Shown here piece after piece: positions 28,801 to 49,800 of a stretch of 64,000 bases of DNA. Under the pieces are notes generated by a model. It ran no database searches. It worked only from the letters and a program-made list of their open reading frames with translations, and was not told where the DNA came from. The translations under genes and the position numbers were made by a program. This DNA comes from Squalus acanthias (Eukaryota). The stretch is taken from assembly GCA_030390025.1 (NCBI GenBank), contig CM059432.1, positions 40,922,001 through 40,986,000 of the forward strand, given 5' to 3'. Each line of letters opens with the position of its first letter. The first letter of the stretch is position 1.

Positions 28801-31800
28801 TTTAGTAGGTGGACCAAAAAGCAAGGAATTCGGAAAACAAAATGAGGCATTTTCAGTAATCTGTTGTTATTTATGTACATTGCCAGGAGTGTCTTATAAA
28901 TGGATGAGATGAAATACTTTCCTAAATAGTGTATGCTGTGTTCATGAAATATATTCTAGCAAGTGTTCTACCATTTAGGAAGAAACACGTGATTTGGAAA
29001 TTGCTGCATGTCTAAGGAGCTAAATGTTCATGCCCTGCAATGTTGCATTTGATCACAGTAAGCAAAGCTGTTAACAAAATTCAGACTTCCTAAATATTTG
29101 TGCCTGTCCAAAGCCTTTTGCAGGAGCATTCTGATCAGTTCATTGATTGGTTCAGGATTTCTCCTATCTGTAATTGGTGTCTACATCATTAAATAAATTT
29201 AAAACAGAAATAGACAGTTTCCTAGAAGTAAAGGGAATTAGGGGTTACGGGGAGCGGGCAGGAAATTGGACATGAGGCTGAGTTCGGATCGGTCAAGGCC
29301 CTGTGGGTGGCGGAGCGGGCCCAGGGGCTGAGTGGCCGGGTCCTGCTCCTACTTCTTGTGTTCTTTAGATTTGAGGTTAGGATCAGATCAGCCATGATCT
29401 TATTGAATGGCGGAGCAGGCTCGAGGGGCCGATTGGCCTACTCCTCCTATTTCTTATGTTCTTACATTGTAGGTACCCTCTTCCACAATGGTGCAAAACC
29501 CTTTCTACTGCTCCCAAGCCTCACCATCCAATTTCCATTACCCAGAGATCCCTTACACACCACTCTCTGTGCTCCCAGAAACCTTTCTCAGTATTTCCAC
29601 AATTGGGAAATCTCTTACTCAATGCTCCCATACCCCACCACCGCCAACCCAGTGCTCCCACATTCCAACCCCCCACCACTACTGCTAGACTCCAGCATGC
29701 TTCCCACATGCTATTCCTAGTAATCCTAGACCCTGGAACCCCCTCTCCTACCACCGTGCTCCCAGACCCCGGAACCCCCACATCGCTCACCACTGTTCCC
29801 ACTCACTTAAGAATCCCCTCCCAGTATTCCCACATTTAGTAAACTCTTTCTGTAACACTCAAAAGGAAGAGGGTGTAACATACTTTCCCATAAGTTGACA
29901 ACATAGAATTCAGTATCACTGAATGCACTTAAGATGGCCAGTCTCATGGGTTGTTGGGTGATGGACAATCTCCAGCAACAACAGAAGGAGAACAAAACAA
30001 AAAGCATTTGAAGAAGCAAGTCAATAAATCAATGAAAGAGAAAGATAGGGAACCAGAAAAGCGCTAGAAAAATATCCATGAGCCATGTCAACGGGGGTGA
30101 AACAGTTCTCAAAAGCAGGGGCGGGAGGGTTCAGATAAGGGTAAGTTTATAAGTTTGAAGAGAAAAGGCAAAGCACTAGAGATTTGGGTAAAATCAAGCA
30201 GGTTATGTCAGGAAGGGGCAGAGAGTTTAATAACGGTAATAGTTCATTAGCAACTAAGGCCACATCAGGGAAAAATAGTAAAAAGTTAAAATTAAAGGTG
30301 CTATATCTAAATGCATGAATCATTCGTATCAAGATAGATGAATTAATGGCACAAATAGAGATAATGGGTTTGATCTAGCAGCCATTATCGAGATGTGGTT
30401 GCAGGTTGACCAAAGTTGGGAACTAAATATTCCAGGGCACTTGACTTTTAGAAAAGAGGCAAATGCAAAAGGAGGTGTGGTAGCCCTGACAAAGGACGAG
30501 ATAAAGGCAGCAGAGGGAAAGGATCTTAGCCCAGAAAATCAGGATGTCGAATCAGTATGGGTGAAGCTATGAAATAACAAAGGGCAGAAAACACTGGCGG
30601 GAGTAGTTTTTGGCCCCCTCATAGAAATCGTAGTGTTGGACAGAGTATAAATCAGGAAACCAGAGGAGCATTTAACAAGGGTAACTTTAATCTTCATATA
30701 GACTGGGCAAACCAAATTGACAAAAGTAGCTTGGAGGACGAGTTTTCTAGAACAATGTGTCAAGGAACCAACAAGGGAACTGGCTATTTTAGATCTAGTA
30801 TTGTGTAATGAGAAAGGGTTAATTAGTGATATAGTAAAGAATCCTCTGGGAAAGATTGATAATATGATAGAATTTCATATTAAGTTTGATGTGGTTAAGT
30901 CCGAAACTAGGGTCTTAAATTTAAACAAAGCCAATTGCGGAGGTATGAGGGGCGGGTTGGCTGAGATAGATGCAGAGGTATGAGGGGTGCCTTGGTTGAG
31001 GTAGATTGGGAAAGTAGAATAAAGGATATGACAGTAGCTAAGCAATGGCAAACATTTAAAGAAATAATTCCTAATTCTCAAGGAATATACATTCCCTTGA
31101 GGAATAAAACCTCCACTGGAAAAGTGGTACAGCCATGGTTAACTAGAGAAGTTAAGGATAGTATTAGATTAAAAGAATGAGGCTTACAATGTTGCCAAAA
31201 AGAGTAGTGAGCCTGAGGATTGGGAGAGTTTTAAAAATCAGCAAAGGATGTCCAAGAAATTCATGAGGGAGAAAATAGAATATGAGAGTAAACTAGCAAG
31301 AAATATAAAAATAGATTGTAAGCTTTTTTACAAGTGTGTAAAAAGGAAGAGATTAGTGAAAGTAAACAGGGGTCTCTTTGACAGGAGAAATTATAATGGG
31401 GAATAAGGAAATGGCAGGGATGTTAAACAAATATTTTGTGTCTGTCTTCACAGTAGAGGACACAAAAAACATACCAGAAATAGGGGGGAACCAAGGGTCG
31501 AATGAGAGTGAGAAACTTAAAGTAATTAATGTTAGTAAAGAAAAAGTACTGGAAAAATTAATGGGACTAAAAGTTGACAAATCCCCTGGACTTGATGGCC
31601 TACACCCTAGGGTTTTAAAAGAGATGGGCAGGGCAAGAGTGAGACTAATTGGATAGGTCTTTCAAAGAGCCAACACAGGCACGATGGGCCAAATGGCCTC
31701 CTTCTGCGCTGTATGATTCTATAATTCTAAGAAGGTGGCAGATGGAGTATAATGTGGGGAAGTGTGAAATTATCCACTTTGGTAAGAAGAATGAAAAAGC

Positions 31801-34800
31801 AGAATATTTTTTAGAAGGTGAGAGACTAGTAAATGTTGGTATTCAGAGGGACCTAGGTGTCCTTGTACACAAATCACAGAAAGTTAACATGCAGGTACAG
31901 CAAGCAATTAGAAAGGCAAATAGTATGTTAGCCTTTATTGGAGTGTAAGAGTAAGGCATTCTTGCTGCAGTTATATAAGGCTTTGGTGAGACCACACTTG
32001 GAGTACTGTGCATAGTTTTGGTCTCCTTACCTAAGGAAAGATATACTTGCCTTAGAGGGGGTGCAACAAAGGTTCACTAGATTGATTCCTGGGATGAGTG
32101 GGCTGTCCTATGAGGAGAGATTGAATAGAATAAGAAGATAAGAAATAGGAGCAGGCGTAGGCCATTCAATAAGATCATGGCTGATCTTCTACCTCAACTC
32201 CACTTTCCTGCACTATCCCCATATCCCTTGATTCCCTTAATATCCAAAAATCTATCGATCTCTGTCTTGAATATACTCAACAACTGAGCCTTAGCAGTTG
32301 GGTTACATTTGCTCCCTTCCAATCCGCAGGAACCATTCGAGAATCGATGGAATTTTGGAAGATGACAACCAATGCATCCACTATCTCTATAGCCACCTCT
32401 TTTAAAACCCTAGGATGTAGGCCATCAGGTCCAGGGGAATTTATCAACTTTGAGTCCCATTAATTTCTCCGGTACTTTTATTTTTACTAATACTAATTTC
32501 TTTCAAAAATGAGAAGTCGCACAACACCAGGTTATAGTCCAACAGTTTTATTTGTGCGACTTCTCATTTTTGTCCACCCCAGTCCAACACCGGCATCTCC
32601 GCATCATAATTTCTTTCAGTTCCTCATCCTTGCTAGACCCTTGGTTCTCCTCTATTTCTGGGAGGTTTTTTGCGTCGTCTTCCGTGAAGACAGACACAAA
32701 GTATTTGTTTAATTTCTCTGCCATTTCCTTATTCCCCATTATAATTTCTCCTGTCTCAGCCTGTAAAGGACCCACGTTTACTTTAGCTAATCTTTTCTTT
32801 TTTACATACCTATAGAAGCTTTTACAGTCTTTTTATGTCTCTCGCATGCTTACTCTCATTCTATTTTCCCTTTCTTTATCAATTTCTTGGTCCTCCTTTG
32901 CTGAATTCTAAAATCCTCCCAATCCTCAGGCTTACTACTCTTTTTGGCAACATTATCAGCCTCTTCCTTTAATTTAATACTATCTTTAATTTCTCTTGTT
33001 TGCCACGGTTGGACCATTTTTCCCGTGGTGTTTTTATTCCTTTAGGGAATGTATATCTGTTGCAAATTGTGAATTATTTCTTTAAATGTTTGCCATTGCT
33101 TTTCTACTGTCATAACTTTTAATCTGGTTTCCCAACCTACTGTAGCCAACTCACCTCTCATACCTACGTAATTTGCTTTGTTCAGGTTTAGGACCCTCGT
33201 TTTGGACTTAACTAAATCACTCTCAAACTCAACATAAAGGAGCTCCCCAGAGGCTCCTTTACTACAAGGTTATTAATTAACCCTGTCTCATTGCACAGTA
33301 CTAGATCTAAAATAGCCATTTCCCTCATAGGTTTCTTGACATACTGATCCAGAAAACTATCTTGAATGCATTCCATGAACTCTTCCTCTGCTCTATTTCT
33401 ACAAATTTGGTTTGCCCAGTCCATATGAAAGTTAAAGTCCCCCATGATTACTGTATTACCCTTGTTACATGCATCTCTAATTTTCTGATTTATACTCTGC
33501 CTGACACAGCAACCACTGTTAGGGGGGCCTATAGACTACTCCCACTCGTGTTTTCTGCCCCTTGTTTCTTAGCTCCACCCTGCCCCTTCTTGTTTCTTAG
33601 CTCCTTAGAATGGGCCTATATTCTCTGGAGTTTAGAAGAATGAGAGGTGACCTCATTGAAATATATAAAATTCTTAGAGAGCTTGACCAGGTAGATACTG
33701 AGAGGCTGTTTCCCCTGGCTGGAGAGTCGAGAATGAGGGGGTCATAGTGTCAGGATAAGGGGTCGGCCATTTAGGACTGAGATGAGGAGAAACTTCTTCA
33801 CTCTTGTAAATCTTTGGAATTCTCTACCCCAGAGGGTTGTGGATGCTCAATCGATGAGTATATTCAAGACTGAGATCGATAGATTTTTGGGCATCAAGGA
33901 AATGGGGATAGGACAGGAAAGTGGAATTGATGTAGAAGTTCAGCTGTGATCTTAGTGAATGGCGGCGCAGGTTTGATGGGCTGTATGGCCTACTCCTGCT
34001 CCTATTTCTTATGATCTTATCCCACTGAATGAAATTTCCAGTTTCAGTTCCTGGTCTATGCTGAATTAGCTGATGCAGTACTTGGGTGATGAAATTAACC
34101 TGGTGTCCCTGGCCAGGATTTAGACTACAAATGACAATTGGTTATCCACGGTTGAGTCACCTATTGGACTAAATCATAGGTTTGTATCTATCCAGAACAG
34201 TTATATACACTGCAACCAAGCATAACAATTTATTTTGAAATATTTTTAATGTTTTGAGAATTATTAAATCCAAATGACAGCATTCAAAATGAGCTTCTCT
34301 TAAAGAAATCCCAGATGAGGTACCTGATAGCTGAGTATGTCTGATGAATTATGGTACCCATTAATTTAATTTCTCTTTCTTGATTTTTAGAATTGAGTAA
34401 ATGGCTGGAGCCACTGAAGAATCTAAAGTTTGAAATTAATTGTATTCCTAGCCTTCTCGAATATATTAAACAGGTGAGTGAAAAGTTAGGTGTCTGTTGA
34501 TGTACTGTATTTTTAAAAAAATAGGGTAAAATGTGAATAGCCAGTTCTGCTTTTGAGATTTGTGGTGTTTCTGCTAAATTTTAATTTTGTTCCAGGTGAC
34601 TCATAAATCAATAAAACTTACTGTCTTAGGAATAGGAAATGATTAGATCAGTTCCTTGGGTACAGATCCTCTTGTGGTTTGAGGGGTTATGATCTGATTT
34701 TTGGCTTTAATTCAGGTTTATCCCTTGGATTGTTGGCAGGTTCAGGGAAACTTGCCTCTTTGGGTCAACCAGTTTAGTTTACAACTTGCACCTTGTGATA

Positions 34801-37800: not shown

Positions 37801-40800
37801 GATTCGCTGAATTCCTTCAAGCGTGAACTGGACCTTTGTCTGGCTGGGGCGGAGATCACTTCTTACAGAAGGTAGATACTGTAGGGAATTCAGGGCCAGA
37901 GTGATCTGGACTAGTTTTGATCGCTTAGATGGGTAGGAGAGGAATTTCCCAGATTTTTTCCCCCCAAATTGGCCTGGTTTTTATTCCTGTTTTTTTGCCT
38001 CTCCCAGGAGATCATATGGTTTCGGGTGGGGTGGAGTGTATATATTGTGATACACAAGGTATCGCAATTGTATGGGACAGACTCGATGGACCAGAGGGTC
38101 TTTACCTGTCTGTCATTGTTCGTATGTTCTGTGTTGGGACATAACTTTCTCATTAATAGATTGTGGGCTTTCAATTGGTTGAAAACAAAGCCAGTCTTCA
38201 GCCAGTTAAAAATGTAAAAAAAAAATCAAACTTGCTGTAAAATGGATATATGAACTGGAAAGCAGAAAAATAAAGGTAACTGAAAGCTTGTTAGACTGGC
38301 GCTTTTTTTTAGAGCAAAAAGCAAGTTAAAGTAAAAATATAGAATAAAAAGGAGGAAACAGGGTTGACGAGCACAAGGTAGTGTTTCAATTTTTTGTTTC
38401 AATTGAAAAATTGTGCTTTAGTTGTCTGGTAGTTAGGGTTAACATTGCAGTAGTAATTATTCTTTAGTTTAAGCAGCTTTATTACTGTTAGATCACTTTT
38501 TTCCCGTATCATTGTAAATGAGCATAAGAACGAAGAGAACCAGTAGGTCCAGGGAGATGCGAACTTCCCTGAAAATACTGCCGGTCTAATGTTTAGAAAA
38601 GAGTACCGAAGATTTTTTTTTGTAAACTATTTTCCATGAGTAAATAAAGTAAATATTGGTCTTTTTGCTTGGGTTAATAGTTGAAGTTCAAAACTATTTT
38701 AAATGAAGCCGAGTCTTGAATTTTGTTGCTTTTTAAACTCCATATATTCTTAGAAATGTGTCTTATTAAAAATTCACAAGTTTACAGATATGCAAGATTT
38801 CTGAGATACAGATATCGTATTGCATGTATCAGTGATTTTTGAAATTGTTTTCATCAAAGTAAGGCTTGCAAAAGATTGTTTTAATTACCTGCCAGTTCAG
38901 ACTAAAATTATTTACCACTGAGCATTATTTCCATGAGAATATGATTTTATTTTGTGATTTTAGAACCTGGATAATTTGACCATTCAGATGACTCAGGAAG
39001 GTGCTGGACTAACCACTGCACTGCGTGTGCTTTGCCACATTGCATGCCCACCTCCCCCCCTTGAAGGTATGATACTTAAACTTGATAGCATTGATAGACT
39101 GGTAATGATGTTTTGGTACTTCGGCCTAGGAATTGGATATGGGCCGAAAACGGGTGGTGTCATGGCCTAGCGCTATTTAGCTGCACTGGGTCAAACTGGT
39201 TCAGGTAGCACGCAAAATTCATGCTCAGTCCTCATTAATATGATTATAATGCTGATCTCAACGCTAAAATCACTGCTCATTGGCTTACCGCTCAACAGGT
39301 GGGCCAATATTGGGTGCAGTCTAATTCCATGTCATGTTTGGCCCAGGCTTTATCCAGTACTTAAGGGGAGGTGCACTGATGCAACAGCACCTCATTGTCA
39401 TTCCACTTGGAAGTCCAAGCAACTACGAAGAGATGGATTAGCGTCAGCAGAGGGACAGAGCAAGACGCTTCTCAGACGCGGCTCTGGAGTCACTGTTGGT
39501 GGCCGTGGAGAGGAGGTGGGCTGTCCGCTTCCCAAAAGCTGGCAGGAAGCCATTGGCCCATACGTGCAGAAAGCATGAGATATCTGATTATGTGACGGCC
39601 AACAGCGTGGTCCCCAGGTCCTCCATCCAGTGCTGCAAGAAGTTTAATGACCTCACATGGCAGGTCAAAGTGAGTGAAGGCTTCAGCAAATGCCATTATC
39701 CACCATCTGCACCGCAAGCCTCACACACTGCTCAATGCACCACACCCCCATCACTCACCTACAAACAATCACCTATCACGACTCAGACCTCACAATCATA
39801 GCTTCACTTCACTCTCACAACCTTACACTGCAGCAACACTCAGACCCACATCTCTCACCTTGCACACACTGACAGCTATTCAGCTATGGCAGGCACATCA
39901 CCCAAACACATTGCACCACACTCACTCACACGCTTCCCTGTCTCTTGCAGGCCAAGGTCGTGCACAATCGCCGGGAGCAGCGGCAGACAGGCGGAGGGGC
40001 AAGCTGCAATACAGGCCTTGAGTCAACTGGAGGATAGAGTGCTCGACATCATTGGAGGTCGTGGCAGCGGGCGAAGTTGAAGTCCTTGGGGACAACAACG
40101 GAATGCTCATTCCTAATCCTCCTTCTCACATCCCACTTTCCTCTCATCCCACAATCTCTTCTCACTTACAAGCTGCTGATGCTGTATGCATGGATATCTT
40201 GCTCTCCCCCGCGTGTACCCCCCCTCCCCCCCACCATATCCCGACTCTTGTGCCTTTCTGCTTTTAGATATCGAAGAACAAGCAGCAGCACAGCCTATCC
40301 CTGAGGCAGTGGAGGAGAGCGAGGTGGGAGAAGAAGACGACACAGCGTCGCTGCATCTGTCACTCGCAGACACCAGCTCAGAAACTGGCACTGCGCGTAC
40401 TTTAGAGGCTAGTGTAGATGCGGGATCTGCACAGGGTGAGGCACTGGGCACGAGTGGGCTCCAGCAAGGCCAGGAGAATAGGGTAACTCGGGGGCCAGCT
40501 CCCCGGAGGGCAAGTTCGTGTGCGAGTTCTGCTGCACAGGACTCAGATGAGGACCTCGATGGGGCGGCCTTCAGAAGAAGGGTATTGGGCATGCACACCG
40601 AATTGCTAGGTGCAATGACAAGCCTGCCAGAGAGCCTCTTGGCAATGTCAAAGAGCTTGGAGGAGTCTGCCTCTAACATTGGCCGGGGCTTTGTGCAGAG
40701 CTTGGAGCCCATGATTTCCAGGCTGGGAATGATGGAAAACTCCAGGAGAGACCGTGTCAACCCAGACTTGATGCTGCGTGTGATGGGCGATGTCGCGGCT

Positions 40801-43800
40801 GCTATTGCAGCACAGGCGGAAGCAACCCAATGTCTTAGTGCTGCAGCACAAGATCAGACTACTCTCTTGCAGTTTCAGCTTGCTGCCACCCAAGCTCAGG
40901 CTGCTGCCATCGGCTGGGTTTACCACTGTCGAACGGGGTTGCCGGGTGTCGCAGCACCCGCAGCAATCTGATCTCCACCAGATTGTTTGGAATGTTGAGG
41001 CGCCATCCCAGGGCAGTAGCTGTGGGTCAGTGGAGCAGGACCCTGTTTCCCCCCTCAGAATGACAGCATTCCTATTCCCACCACAGCCACTCCGCCATTG
41101 CCCTTCCGCTGCCTGTCATCCAGCCAGCCCAGACTGCTGTCGTCACTTCATAGAGGAGCACCTGAACAGGAAAAGGCGCCCGAACAACAGGCACTAAGGG
41201 ATTGCTCAAGGGTGATTGGTTGATATAGTAGTTGTGAATTGATTCTTGATAAATTTAATAATTTGGTTTGGAATCTTTGTTTTGTGGTGGCTCTCATTTC
41301 AGCTTTGTGCCCAGGAGTACACTGTGACAGAGGGATGATATGATGAGGATGTGGTGAGCAATGGGGATCTGGGGTTTCATTCACTGGAATCGCAGTCTGA
41401 TGACTGCCCGTGCCGAAGGGGGATTTGCTGCCTGCCTCTTCCCTTCCTCCTCTTCTCCCTCTTCCTCTTCTTGAGGTGGTCCCGCAATCCCTACTGGCAA
41501 TCGCTGTGCTCTCATGATGGCCAACATGCAGCAGACCACCAAGTGCGAGTGGTCACGGCAGCGGAACCGGTGCTTCAGCAGGCCGATGGTCTGCTCGATG
41601 ATGTTCCTGGTGGCAGCATGGCTCTCGTTATGAGTGCTGGGCACGAGTGTTGAGGCTGCGGAGGGGAGTCATCAGCCAGGTGCAGAGTGGATATCCCTTG
41701 TCTCCGAGCAGCCACCGTCTGGTTTGACGTGGTGGCTGGAAGATTGCTGGCAGAGCGGACTGACGCAGGATGAAGGCATCATGACTGCTGCCAGGATAGC
41801 GGGCATTGACCATCAGGAAGCGCTGGGCTTGGTCGCACAACAACTGCACATTAAGTGAGTGGTAGCCTTTGTGGTTATGGAAGATCTCAGGATTGTTATG
41901 CCCACAAAGCCACGTGGGTGCAGTCGATTGCGCCCTGCACCATGGGGAAGCCCGCTATCCTGGCAAAGACACATGCGTGCTCATCTTTCTCTCTGCTCAG
42001 AGAAGAAAATGTAGTATCTTCTGGTGTAGTGAGCTTCAGTGACCTTCCAGATGCAGCGATGGACAGCGAACTGGAAGATGGTAGCTATGTCTCCTGCTGC
42101 AGACTGGAAGGATCCGCTGGCGAAGAAATTAAGGGCCACGGTGACCTTGAGAGCCACTGGGAGAACTGTGTTCGCCCTGCTCTGACGCTGCAGGTCTGGT
42201 TGCAGGAGGTGGCAGAGTTGTGTGGCCACCTCCTTGGTGAAGCGGAGCCTCCTAATACACTGCTCCACGCTTAAGTGGATATAAGAGACGTGCTCTCTGA
42301 AGACCCTCGGTGGGGTAAGTCCTCCTGTTGAGAGCCCTCCTCCCTCTGCGAGCATCTTCTCTTTGCTGCCTCCACTCCCTAAGATATTCAAGTGCGAGAT
42401 AGACTGCCAGTACAGACCCCATGACTGAGCAGAAGCCTTCTAAATAAGAATGAAAGCATTCTCCACTTGCCCCAACACTCCCTGTTACCTTAGGACCTTG
42501 AAAGAAGTTTAGAAAGCTGCTGGAGTTGCAGAAGGTTCCACAGAGCCATTCAAACTGAAGAAACATCTCAGCTGCAAGTTTTGCTGATGATCCCTTTAAA
42601 TAACGCTGCTGGAGCCTCCTTCCTGTTTGTCAACGCTTGCTCAGCTGGTCGCAATTAATGCCGGTAAGTGGAGCGGCGAAGTTGAAAATGGCAGATCGGG
42701 CGTCAAGTGAGCGTTGCACACTCACTGACGTCACGATCTGCATAATCTCCATAATTTTCGCGAATGAGCCCAGCCGAAAATGGCTGCCGCTGAGGGATGC
42801 GCTGGCAGTGGGTGGAAATGCGGCGGCTGCCATTTTCTCCCCCCCCAAATTGGGCGGTAATGGCCGTGCTAAACCCCCGAATTTCTAGGCCATTGTACTT
42901 TATTTATTGCAGTTGTCTGTGGAAAACTTTTTTTGATTTATATCTTATTTAAAAATGTTATATAGAATAAAGATAATAATTAAAAGCAAAATAGACATTG
43001 CATTTACTAGTATGCTTTGGAAGTGGTGATAATTTCATGGTTCTAAAGATATTGGGCCATAATTTGCTGCAGTCGGGCATCCAACGGCGTCTGCTATTAG
43101 TTGGACTTGCCCTTGCAAGTTTAGGTTTTTAGATCTTCGCGTGGCAAGTTGCTGAATGTGAGAGCTCATAACATCACAACGAAGAAAACAGGCATCTGGG
43201 ACCTGAGTGAACAGGGAAAGCAACTTTATATCTCCTTAACCAATCAGTTTGAAGGATTGTGAAATTAACAGTGCAAGGACTGAGAAGGAAGTGTAACTGA
43301 GAGTGGTTGAATTCAATATCAAATGAGGTGCAGAAAGAGACGGAAAGAAAGATTGGATTGAGAGAGAAAAGAGACGGAAAGGAAAAGTTTTTAAAAAAGT
43401 GGAAATCTAAAATTTTACAATTTTAAAATCTCCAAGAACAATTCAAACCTGATGTAATGAGACTCCACACTTGTACTAGTTAATTTCCAATGCCAGAGAT
43501 GTTGACTGGCAGTAATTAACACTTATCACGTTGTTAAAAGGATACTTAGACTGAAATAGACAAGACTTTCTGTAGAATGTTTAGTTCATATCTACCACGC
43601 AAATACATCAACTTCATGTTATTCAATGGATTTCAGTGGTGAGGCAGAGATTGAGATGTTTTTGTGGAGCGGTCCATCTCGGACAGCAACGTTTGGATTT
43701 TTGAATTTAACCACACATCTGCCCTTTGCCTGAAGTTGCTGTAGCATTTGCGCATAAATAACAGCGAATGCCACTACCTTCACCATTATTTTGACAGAAA

Positions 43801-46800: not shown

Positions 46801-49800
46801 CATCCAATTGCCATTATTTATACATAAGTCTCGATGATGAATGTTGATAAGCCATTCAACCCTGTGGCATCACCATCAAACTTGATTCAGTCCTCGCTTG
46901 ATTCCTAAACATGCATATTTTAAGCAGGAGTCACTGTTTAGCAATTAGGAAAGGAAACCCTGTCTAATGTTTCTTCATACTCTCTGCCTATGGAATATTG
47001 TGTCCAATAGTAATTCCTGCAGTGTTGCCCCAGCTGAGAGCTGCCGCAGCAGAGACATGGAATTAAACCGAGAGTTTGTGGCACAGTACCACATCATGTG
47101 GTTTATTTACTCACTGAGGCATCACAGGATCTTAAAATTGCCTTTATTGTGAGGACATATTTGAAATTTCAAATCAACAAAGTACTCTCTGTTAATAGCT
47201 GTAATGAATCTTCCAGAGTATTTTACCCAGGAATAGCGTCTAGCTAAGCCTTCTCCTTCAGTCACCGCTCTGTTTCTTAATCCAGCATAGCCTCTGGCTC
47301 AATAGCCACTTTGATAAAGTATTCCATATTCTAATAGCCATCTGTAGGAAAACATTTCTTTGGTTGTTAATTCTTTATTCTTCTCATGAGGATTATGAGT
47401 TTGTTCCCCAAATGTTGCTCAATTTTTCATTATATTTTTTAATCTTGAAAATCTCTATTGGATTCTCTCCCCCCCCCCCCTTTTAATTGTCTCTCTAAGT
47501 TTAAAAAAAAGGCCTACATTTTCAAGCCTTTTGTCATAACTATAACTGCTCATTCCTGGTAATTAATGTATCCTGGTAATTAAATCTTGGTATTAATGGT
47601 ACAGTGAATAGTATATGAACATTTTATTTCATCCTTGCAGTAAAATTCTGAACAAATTTTCAGTACAATCCCCACCATTTACGCCGTCCGCGCTTATTGC
47701 AGACAGCTGCCTATATCAGGTAAATGGCGCTAACCATTTGCCATCGCCATAGGCGTCAAATACAAAGGCGCCGCTTGAAATCTATTAAGTGCGTTGACTA
47801 TTTTGGCCAGTTCAAGCAGAATAATTCTTTGCCTCAGCTGTTCGCACCTCGTTAAAATGCAATTACCATTAAGTCCTTTCCTGGTTCTTGGTGACCCTTT
47901 CACGATTACATTATTTAAGGACAAGAGTAAAATGACTGCTCATTTATGATGACTGCATAATTGGAACTGCTTGTACTCTTTCAAATATGCAACGGCAGCA
48001 TCACCGCCTCCAGTCCCCACTGGGACCTCTCGAATGGCTGCAGCCCTTCTTGCCGACTTGTTGAGCTCCTCGTCATTGCAGGGGATGATGCACAACTTCT
48101 TGTTGTCTGCGTTGCCCACCAGCTCCAGGATCTTGGCCGTAGGGTACTCAAGGACCTTTCTCGCACGGGTTTTGGAAGGATGCGCGTACCCTTTTGAATC
48201 AAAGTGCTCTTTTAAAATTTCTCGGTTACAGCGTCCACCGTGTATAGTGTCAAATCACATTGACACCAACACGCCCATTATAAATGGTAGGGAATGTATT
48301 TTGTGTTATTTTGATGTTTTTAACCAATACCTGGATGGCCTCCCATTTTCCACCCTCTGTAAACTTGAGCTCATCCAAAACTCTGCTGCCCATATCCTAA
48401 CTTGCACCATCACCCCTCTGCTCACTGACCTACATTGGCTGTCGGTCCACCAATGGCTCAAATTTTAAATGTTCATCTTTGTATTCAAATCCCTCCATGG
48501 CCTTGCCACTCCCTATCTTGGTAACCTCCTACAGCTCCACAATCCTCCAAGAACTCTGCGTTCCTCCAATTCTGACCTTTTGTGCATCCCCGACTTCTTT
48601 CGCCCCACTATTGGCAACTGTGCCATCAGCTGTCTAGGCCCTAAACTCTGAAACTCCATCCCTAAACCTCTCCACCTCTCTCTCCTTTAAGATGCTGCTT
48701 TAAACCTAACCCTTTAACCAGGCCGTCAGGTAATTGAGAACCTTTCTCGGATGGTCCTAATGTCGTCTTCTTTGGCTGTCAATTTCTTTGTCTGATTATA
48801 TGCCTATGAAGTGCCTTGGGACGTTTTACTTCGTTAAAGGCGCTATGTAAAAGCAAGTTGTTGTAGTATTCTTCAAGAATAATTTCAGCATAAAACAGAA
48901 TGGCGACTCTTACTGGTTGGCTGATGAGGCTGAGTAAAATGAGATTTAAAATACTTTTATTTTTAAAGTAATTGCAAGGGTGGCAATATCTGCAGTGTTC
49001 TGATGATGAGGTATATTTTGCGCTCTAAGTCACAAAAGTGACCAAATGTGTGATCTTGCTTGAAACCAAAGGCTTGTTCATTTGTAAAGCTGTTGCGATG
49101 ATGTTTGCACCTATAGGGTTAGTGGTGTATCATTTTAACTTGTAAGTGTGGCTAATATTTCTCTATTCTATGTATAACCACAAAAATGTTATATTGCTTG
49201 ACAGCCGATTTCAGCAGAAGGTATAGCTATTGCACTGAACACCCGAAAACTGTGGAGCATTCACCTTCAAATGCAAGCAAAGTTTCTGCAAGAAATAGTA
49301 CGTTCCAGCTTTGGATCCACCTGCCACCCTCTACAACAGATACTCAGGCGTGTGTGCATACAACTGTGTGATCTGGCTTCTCCCACAGCTCTCCTTATCC
49401 TGAGGACTGTATTAGATCTAATTGTAGAAGAATTGAGCAGGTAATCATTTTTTTGAGCTCCAGGCAGTTTTGCAGTTTTACCTGATTTATGGTACTGTCA
49501 CTTTTCAGGGTTTGTTTTCTGGAAGTTTGCTGAAGAATTTTTTATAGTTTTAAAAAAGTTTTAAAACCAGCAAGTTTGATTTGGAAGACAAAATAGAACA
49601 TGTAAGCAGCTCAATAATTTTTATATGACCAGCATAATTCTATTTGTTTGAACAGGGAGCCTTTTTTATACAAATAAGTAATTCTTTGTTGTATTACTCA
49701 AATAATTTCTATCTCACAGTCCTTTAGAAGGGAAAGAGAAGCCCCTCACTGCCCACACTGCACGTCTGCTTGCACTGCTGGATTCTTTAGCTTCACATGG

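What the first reader, a model, noticed from the sequence alone, without database searches (positions are those of the whole stretch)
47664..48298. TA-flanked TIR element carrying a captured histone H2A core
Seen: a roughly 630-bp CpG-rich segment bounded by 18-bp inverted repeats (16/18 including TA). Its minus strand (48155-48057) encodes [33 protein letters not shown], 27/33 identical to H2A V54-K95, the region bearing the nucleosome acidic patch. Both deletions (2 and 7 codons) keep the frame. The frame is open stop-to-stop for 104 codons (48254-47943), has no ATG, and ends ...SHHK*. Up to five of the six substitutions fit CpG deamination (GAG>AAG after C, GCG>GTG, CGC>TGC twice, possibly TCG>TTG). 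Inference: either Pack-type gene-fragment capture by a DNA transposon, or the relic of an element that encoded a histone-fold protein. The ORF track misses it.
Basis: partly seen in the sequence, partly recalled or inferred. Interest (0 to 1): 0.75.

Follow-up and report, generated by a model that had tools for sequence, protein, structure and literature searches.

The report
Old transposon carrying histone H2A scrap
A 635-base repeat with matching inverted ends sits in an intron of the VIRMA gene and carries a 99-base decayed piece of a histone H2A gene that is also found in other copies of the repeat; it is likely an old cut-and-paste transposon that picked the piece up as non-coding cargo, a known process whose multi-copy form is uncommon in animals.

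Summary
In detail: 16/18 TA-bounded inverted ends, CpG o/e 0.82 against 0.34 for the window, and 27/33 identity to H2A V54-K95. Contigs of four organisms laid on the site show a dispersed repeat family with ends at these coordinates and many different flanks. At least 7 other contigs of the source-like run join H2A sequence to element sequence (at least 4 loci). Far more relatives share only the left arm. The insertion is orthologous in two other organisms and, for its left half, a third. So this is an old, multi-copy, Pack-TIR-like capture by a non-autonomous element, probably of the TA-targeting Tc1/mariner-pogo group. The reading as a relic of a histone-fold protein is not supported. Helix 1 is absent, helix 3 is deleted, E61 is now K, and there is no ATG and no Pfam or protein relative. 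Six amino-acid changes fit neutral decay. The 21-nt deletion lies between CCGC repeats, which in H2A are 77-84% in frame. Not shown: an empty site, an autonomous partner, the donor gene, paralog sequences. New member of a known kind; interest 0.3.

The parts
47664..47665 (.). TA, left putative target-site duplication
   Evidence: Sequence. Relatives align from 47664 with unrelated flanks before it: 21, 11 and 19 contigs in X9, X14, X20, agreement 0.40-0.44 (table 7). No empty site was seen, so duplication is inferred.
47666..47681 (+). left terminal inverted repeat (16 nt, begins CA)
47666..47790 (.). left arm shared with a high-copy repeat family
   Evidence: Summed contig depth peaks at 143-432 times the flank depth in four runs; 68-116 contigs per run share the variant at 47721. 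Depth is not a copy number.
47791..48056 (.). variable middle; relatives diverge, skip or replace parts of it
   Evidence: Joints and loose ends, for example a shared different interior after 47867 in 20 (X1) and 18 (X9) contigs.
48057..48155 (-). captured histone H2A coding fragment, V54-K95, lacking codons 70-71 and 7 codons around 81-87
   Evidence: GC3 29/33
47943..48254 (-). 104-codon stop-to-stop frame without ATG; judged incidental
   Evidence: chance 14% in any frame, 4% in this frame given the core; no Pfam match; only doubled H2A proteins hit
48156..48280 (.). right inner arm, shared with a smaller set of relatives
   Evidence: depth 3-12 times flank in X1; X1 record 8 and X9 record 32
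48281..48296 (-). right terminal inverted repeat
   Evidence: Depth is 11-15 times flank at 48268-48301 and falls to single-copy level (0 in X20) past 48302.
48297..48298 (.). TA, right putative target-site duplication
   Evidence: sequence

Best explanation
This is a copy of a dispersed repeat family with TA-bounded inverted ends whose interior holds a decayed 99-base piece of a histone H2A gene, likely a non-autonomous Tc1/mariner-pogo-type DNA transposon that captured the piece once and then spread it as non-coding cargo. Shown: the element ends, the multi-copy family, H2A joined to element sequence in other loci, and the orthologous insertion in other organisms. Inferred steps: (1) a break or stalled fork inside a family member was repaired by template switching onto a histone gene, as in the gap-filling or FoSTeST models; (2) a transposase supplied in trans recognised the ends and moved the chimera to new TA sites, giving roughly 4-15 H2A-bearing loci that can still be detected; (3) small deletions, one of them between CCGC repeats, and CpG deamination eroded the cargo; (4) this copy landed in a VIRMA intron before the sampled organisms split and has decayed neutrally since.
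For: (560, 466, 255 and 696 contigs laid): single-copy depth in both flanks, a sharp rise at 47656-47689 and a fall at 48302. Different flanks before 47664 in 21, 11 and 19 contigs. In X1, 7 contigs other than the own locus join H2A to element sequence: records 5, 7, 8 (16-17% substitutions) and 4 joints with at least 31 letters on the shorter side. Record 8 runs from H2A into the right TIR and then 482 letters that do not match this flank; X9 record 32 looks like the same locus. Relatives with both arms but no alignable H2A exist (47867 to 48235 and to 48251; 48014 to 48218). Orthologous insertion: X9 records 25, 26, 31; X14 records 9, 16; X20 record 17 (left half). The element diverges faster than its flank (X9: 2.2% for the flank piece, 4.1-6.8% for element pieces). 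Neutral simulation at 8.5% gives a mean of 5.1 amino-acid changes, P(6 or more) 0.39, P(stop) 0.08. Repeats of 4 nt or more within 40 nt in H2A DNA are in frame in 34 of 44 (L004) and 27 of 32 (L006) pairs. Precedents.
Against: No empty site is among the 15 of 61 joints shown, so the TA duplication is inferred. No autonomous partner or transposase was found, and no genome is held. Paralog sequences could not be read, only tables (32 of 2056 pieces shown). Short contigs that cover only the H2A part may be host histone genes, so depth there (9-14 times flank in X1, 3-7 times in the others) overstates copies; two halves of one locus may also be counted twice. The 'no H2A' joints are marked 'between: not known' and could hide diverged H2A. 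A 14-19 nt periodicity test for subterminal repeats was not significant (P 0.12). The donor cannot be placed: 83/99 nt to the vertebrate-type L006 and to all five algal-type comparators alike. Indels among paralogs are mixed: record 7 is net +5 (frameshift), but record 5 is net 0 and record 8 is net +12. A 104-codon frame given the core arises in only 4% of shuffles.
Confidence: 0.8

Rival explanations
1. The H2A piece entered as cDNA, a truncated retrocopy made by LINE machinery that inserted into a family member, which then transposed. The end state is the same; the capture step differs.
For: The window is rich in LINEs. Canonical histone genes lack introns (established knowledge), so an RNA route cannot be excluded.
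Against: No poly(A), target duplication or H2A 3' end flanks the piece; homology stops at V54 and K95. The stem-loop-like stretch at 48173-48213 is in the opposite orientation and weak.
Confidence: 0.08
2. The element, or its autonomous parent, encoded an H2A-derived peptide (histone-fold or acidic-patch mimic), and this is its relic.
For: Both deletions are in frame. The frame is open for 104 codons (4% by chance given the core). Five of six acidic-patch residues are kept (residue list recalled). Record 5 is net 0 and record 8 is net +12. Fungal hAT elements carry transcribed H3-like ORFs.
Against: No ATG. Helix 1 and the start of helix 2 are absent and helix 3 is deleted (boundaries recalled; they agree with the low-confidence model). 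E61K and L58P. No Pfam match and no protein with these deletions or flanks among 1.84 billion representatives. Neutral-level change. Record 7 is net +5. Paralogs have indels across the SHHK end (47936-47956) and at 48247.
Confidence: 0.05
3. One local gap-filling event put H2A DNA into a dead element, and the extra copies arose by segmental duplication, not transposition.
For: Most animal Pack-TIRs arise by gap filling in place.
Against: Flank depth stays single-copy at 80% likeness. Record 8 leaves the alignment at the right TIR and has a different flank. No H2A gene was seen among the window's frames of 110 codons or more (read by eye).
Confidence: 0.04
4. A one-off histone pseudogene fragment; the extra depth over H2A comes only from host histone genes.
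For: Host H2A genes could align at 80% in short pieces.
Against: Records 5, 7, 8, 24, 32 and four joints tie H2A to element-specific sequence at 16-18% divergence, and record 5 carries both deletions.
Confidence: 0.03

Closest known systems
Multicopy Pack-TIRs of animals (Tan et al. 2021, PMC8277862; abstract, section 7 whole, passages of sections 4, 6, 8, 9, 10, 12, 14, and a supplement search)
   Same: Host sequence between the ends of a short non-autonomous TIR element, copies at distinct sites; TcMariner is one of the two main carriers (115 of 370).
   Different: Old and eroded, so it falls outside that study's filters (90% identity to the parent, length ratio 80-120%). Cargo is histone coding sequence. 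The study found only 4 (1.4%) multicopy cases, in frog and alligator, and 0 Pack-TIRs in elephant shark.
Histone H3 transduplication by hAT transposons in Pyrenophora tritici-repentis and Pseudocercospora fijiensis (PMC3538342, passages; PMC6710886, abstract and outline)
   Same: A core histone sequence captured between TIRs and amplified; dead copies in P. fijiensis.
   Different: Fungi, hAT, H3; near-complete ORFs inside transposase-bearing elements of 2.3-5.6 kb, with ESTs in Pyrenophora. Here a 33-codon H2A scrap in a 635-base TA-flanked element with no transposase.
Tigger/pogo elements (PMC9219625, passages and table rows)
   Same: TA target duplication and short TIRs (18-23 bp in Chondrichthyes).
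   Different: No transposase here, and no link to a named family was tested; other TA-targeting Tc1/mariner groups fit as well.

Membership tests
Pack-TIR (multicopy) | TIR-element ends on both sides of the cargo | tested here: met
   both ends recur as repeat boundaries in four runs
Pack-TIR (multicopy) | interior derived from non-TE host sequence | tested here: met
   H2A 27/33 aa, 83/99 nt. The rest of the interior is of unknown origin.
Pack-TIR (multicopy) | related elements without the cargo exist | tested here: inconclusive
   Loose ends after 47867 (20 and 18 contigs) and three joints that skip H2A; the sequence between is not known.
Pack-TIR (multicopy) | cargo-bearing copies at distinct sites with distinct flanks | tested here: met
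   7 X1 contigs; the different flank is seen directly for record 8 only.
Pack-TIR (multicopy) | parental copy identified in the same genome, not TE-linked, not a retrocopy | not testable with these tools
   No genome; histone genes lack introns. Length ratio 99/126 = 79%, just under the paper's filter for young cases, which is a search filter and not a definition.
Tc1/mariner-pogo non-autonomous element | TA target-site duplication | tested here: inconclusive
   TA at both ends and relatives align from the TA; no empty site seen.
Tc1/mariner-pogo non-autonomous element | short TIRs | tested here: met
   16 nt plus TA; range in PMC9219625
Tc1/mariner-pogo non-autonomous element | autonomous partner with the same TIRs and a DDE/DDD transposase | not testable with these tools
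   No genome; no transposase match in 8 of the 15 frames overlapping the element that were scanned.
pogo/Tigger in particular | subterminal repeated transposase-binding motifs (feature recalled) | tested here: inconclusive
   Periodicity P 0.12 in this copy; a CTTAT/CCTAT-type motif repeats by eye in the loose-end consensus rows.
histone-fold (H2A) protein gene | three-helix fold (helices 1-3) | tested here: not met
   Homology limited to V54-K95 with helix 3 deleted; no Pfam histone match.
histone-fold (H2A) protein gene | start codon and purifying selection | tested here: not met
   No ATG; 6 changes against 5.1 expected neutrally, with L006 as stand-in ancestor and an assumed 6-fold CpG rate.

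The most novel reading that the evidence does not exclude
A pogo-type family in sharks once kept an in-frame, trimmed H2A segment (end of helix 2 joined to the D90-E92 acidic residues) and expressed it as a nucleosome acidic-patch decoy or histone-mimic peptide, perhaps spliced into an autonomous element's transcript; the copies seen now are its decayed relics.
Probability: 0.05. Interest if true: 0.8.

Novelty: new member of a known kind. Interest (0 to 1): 0.3.

Why it matters
Multi-copy gene-fragment capture by TIR transposons was rare in a 100-animal survey (4 cases, none in the one cartilaginous fish found in its species table). This adds an old case shared by several organisms and, as far as my searches reach, an unreported histone-carrying one in a vertebrate. 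With an unchecked note of a BAZ1A-carrying element in the same genome, it suggests shark genomes are a good place to study Pack-TIR birth. It is also a caution: in-frame deletions in a captured coding fragment are no evidence of function, since microhomologies in coding DNA are mostly in frame. It gives no new mechanism.

Tried and rejected
No whole genome is held, so no BLAST, consensus or partner search. No second copy in the window. Word-based protein search: 2 candidates, none passing. HMMER over 1.84 billion representatives: 6 hits, all doubled H2A proteins. A left-arm pattern found nothing in metagenome contigs, and an H2A pattern nothing in viral contigs. Rfam: one match at E 0.69 in the left flank, nothing in the element. 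DNA fold z -2.0 on 20 shuffles, not pursued. AlphaFold on single sequences gave no verdict: pLDDT 42 for the frame and 48 for the real H2A control. Of 20 runs listed, 4 were laid; organisms B, D, F, G were not examined. Three X1 joints with fewer than 31 letters on the shorter side (47744-48041, 47759-48109, 47982-48081) were dropped from the count of 7. A tree of the fragment was not built, since identity did not separate comparators. Upstream H2A-likeness and the SHHK end were rejected as chance. The histone stem-loop-like stretch in the right arm (2 of 500 and 8 of 500 shuffles, noticed after the fact among 8 comparisons) is not used: paralogs carry other letters at 48199 and 48206 that weaken it. 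X20 has no cover past 48302, which shows nothing. Earlier-finding look-ups by place and sequence gave nothing. Repbase and Dfam are not available, so the family may already have a name.

Full report
Context. The window holds a VIRMA (virilizer) gene on the + strand (E 3e-97; further exon-like frames) among LINE copies with reverse transcriptase domains. The element lies in an intron, between exon-like frames near 47.0-47.1 kb and 49.2 kb (read by eye), and 31 bases before a 5'-truncated LINE piece at 48330-48867 (the label L2 is recalled). No genome is held.

The observation. The ends, CpG enrichment, H2A match and open frame are as described. For a DNA comparator I fetched 7 loci with H2A genes from metagenome contigs. 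L006 is a complete vertebrate-type gene, L004 a partial one, and five look algal. Against L006 the piece is 27/33 aa and 83/99 nt for V54-K95. Homology does not extend upstream or downstream at DNA or protein level, apart from a 6/7 match after a 4-nt offset behind K95, a weak hint of a third deletion that breaks the frame.

It is a repeat family. Twenty runs of 8 coded organisms hold part of the stretch; I laid 4 DNA runs at 80% likeness. Depth is single-copy in the flanks, rises at 47656-47689, peaks at 143-432 times flank over the left arm, is 3-14 times over H2A and 11-15 times at the right end, and drops past 48302. Depth is summed over contigs and is no copy number. Before 47664, 21, 11 and 19 contigs of X9, X14 and X20 run into unrelated sequence (agreement 0.40-0.44), so the TA-TIR is a true family end. 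The X1 row for that place is not among the 24 of 802 shown.

H2A travels with the element. In X1, record 5 (47949-48133) has equal span in record and window, so it shares both deletions. Record 7 (47971-48138) is net +5, so it shares the 21-nt deletion and may lack the 6-nt one. Record 8 (48107-48288) joins H2A to the right TIR and goes on into another flank. All three differ from the window by 16-17%. Four joints with at least 31 letters on each side link the left arm to H2A. That is 7 contigs, at least 4 loci if halves are counted twice; only 32 of 2056 pieces and 15 of 61 joints were shown. Several alignments break at the two deletion sites (48107/48109, 48079/48081), so copies may differ there. 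Most relatives share only the left arm; 20 and 18 contigs go on after 47867 into one other interior, and three joints skip the H2A part with unknown sequence between.

Age and decay. The insertion is at the same site in organisms C (15 changes in 366, no gaps) and E (25 in 448, 1 gap), both with the same deletions, and its left half in H. In C the element pieces differ by 4.1-6.8% and the flank piece by 2.2%. Transitions dominate the changes (table 1). Taking half the paralog distance (8.5%) as lineage change, neutral simulation on L006 codons gives a mean of 5.1 amino-acid changes and a stop in 8% of runs, so six changes and no stop need no selection. The 21-nt deletion lies between CCGC repeats 21 bases apart in both vertebrate-type comparators, and repeats of 4 nt or more in H2A DNA are in frame in 34 of 44 and 27 of 32 pairs. 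The 6-nt deletion shows no clear microhomology in L006.

Coding potential. There is no ATG, no Pfam match and no database protein with this form. Helix 1 is missing and helix 3 is deleted (helix limits recalled; one search's low-confidence model agrees). E61 of the acidic patch (residue list recalled) is K, and L58 is P within helix 2. Points for coding: a 4% chance of the open frame given the core, a possibly compensating -1/+1 pair at 48019 and 48041 in some paralogs, and a net +12 in record 8. Points against: net +5 in record 7 and several indels across the frame's last codons. A longer frame (171 codons) lies on the opposite strand, and L006 has a 146-codon antisense frame too.

Mechanism. 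Shown: ends, family, cargo in several loci, orthology. Inferred: capture by template switching or gap repair, movement by a transposase in trans, TA duplication, and the Tc1/mariner-pogo assignment. An RNA route of capture cannot be excluded for an intronless gene.

Comparison. It works like a multicopy Pack-TIR (PMC8277862: 370 cases, 4 multicopy; elephant shark 0) and meets the features that could be tested. Histone capture by TIR elements is known in fungi (H3 in hAT; PMC3538342; PMC6710886). TA and short TIRs fit Tigger/pogo (PMC9219625) but do not single it out. Seven paper searches (listings seen) showed no description of this element. The library lacks most subscription papers and repeat databases, and bioRxiv supplements were closed. 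Earlier AI notes report other Pack-type elements, one in this genome; I did not check them.

Verdict. A real, old, multi-copy transposon with dead H2A cargo: new member of a known kind, interest 0.3. The coding reading keeps about 5%.

Noticed in passing
window 48056-48079 (table 5c, run X1): One paralog contig appears to hold three tandem copies of the roughly 23-base unit that codes NDEELNK, a sign of slippage in the cargo.
   Followed up: no
window 48173-48213, + strand: Resembles the 5' half of the histone 3' stem-loop region of L006 and L004, opposite in orientation to the H2A piece; weak, and paralog letters move away from it.
   Followed up: partly
window 47486-47587: A small separate repeat in the left flank: depth rises to about 16-24 times flank at 47520-47553 in all four runs; a 13-base direct repeat lies at 47554 and 47571.
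   Followed up: no
window about 39200-42600: GC-rich element with a weak Myb/SANT-like frame (39442-39798, E 0.026) and an opposite-strand frame (41984-42439) that looks like a Harbinger nuclease by recall; likely a decayed Harbinger transposon inside VIRMA.
   Followed up: no
window 30560-33580: Nested, inverted LINE fragments form a long imperfect inverted repeat.
   Followed up: no
L004:1-954: A metagenome contig in which a prokaryote-looking frame runs directly into the 3' half of a vertebrate-type H2A gene with its stem-loop; probably a chimeric assembly or contaminant.
   Followed up: no
relatives beyond window 47867 (table 7): A sister subfamily (20 contigs in X1, 18 in X9) shares a different interior; it could hold other cargo or a transposase remnant.
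   Followed up: no
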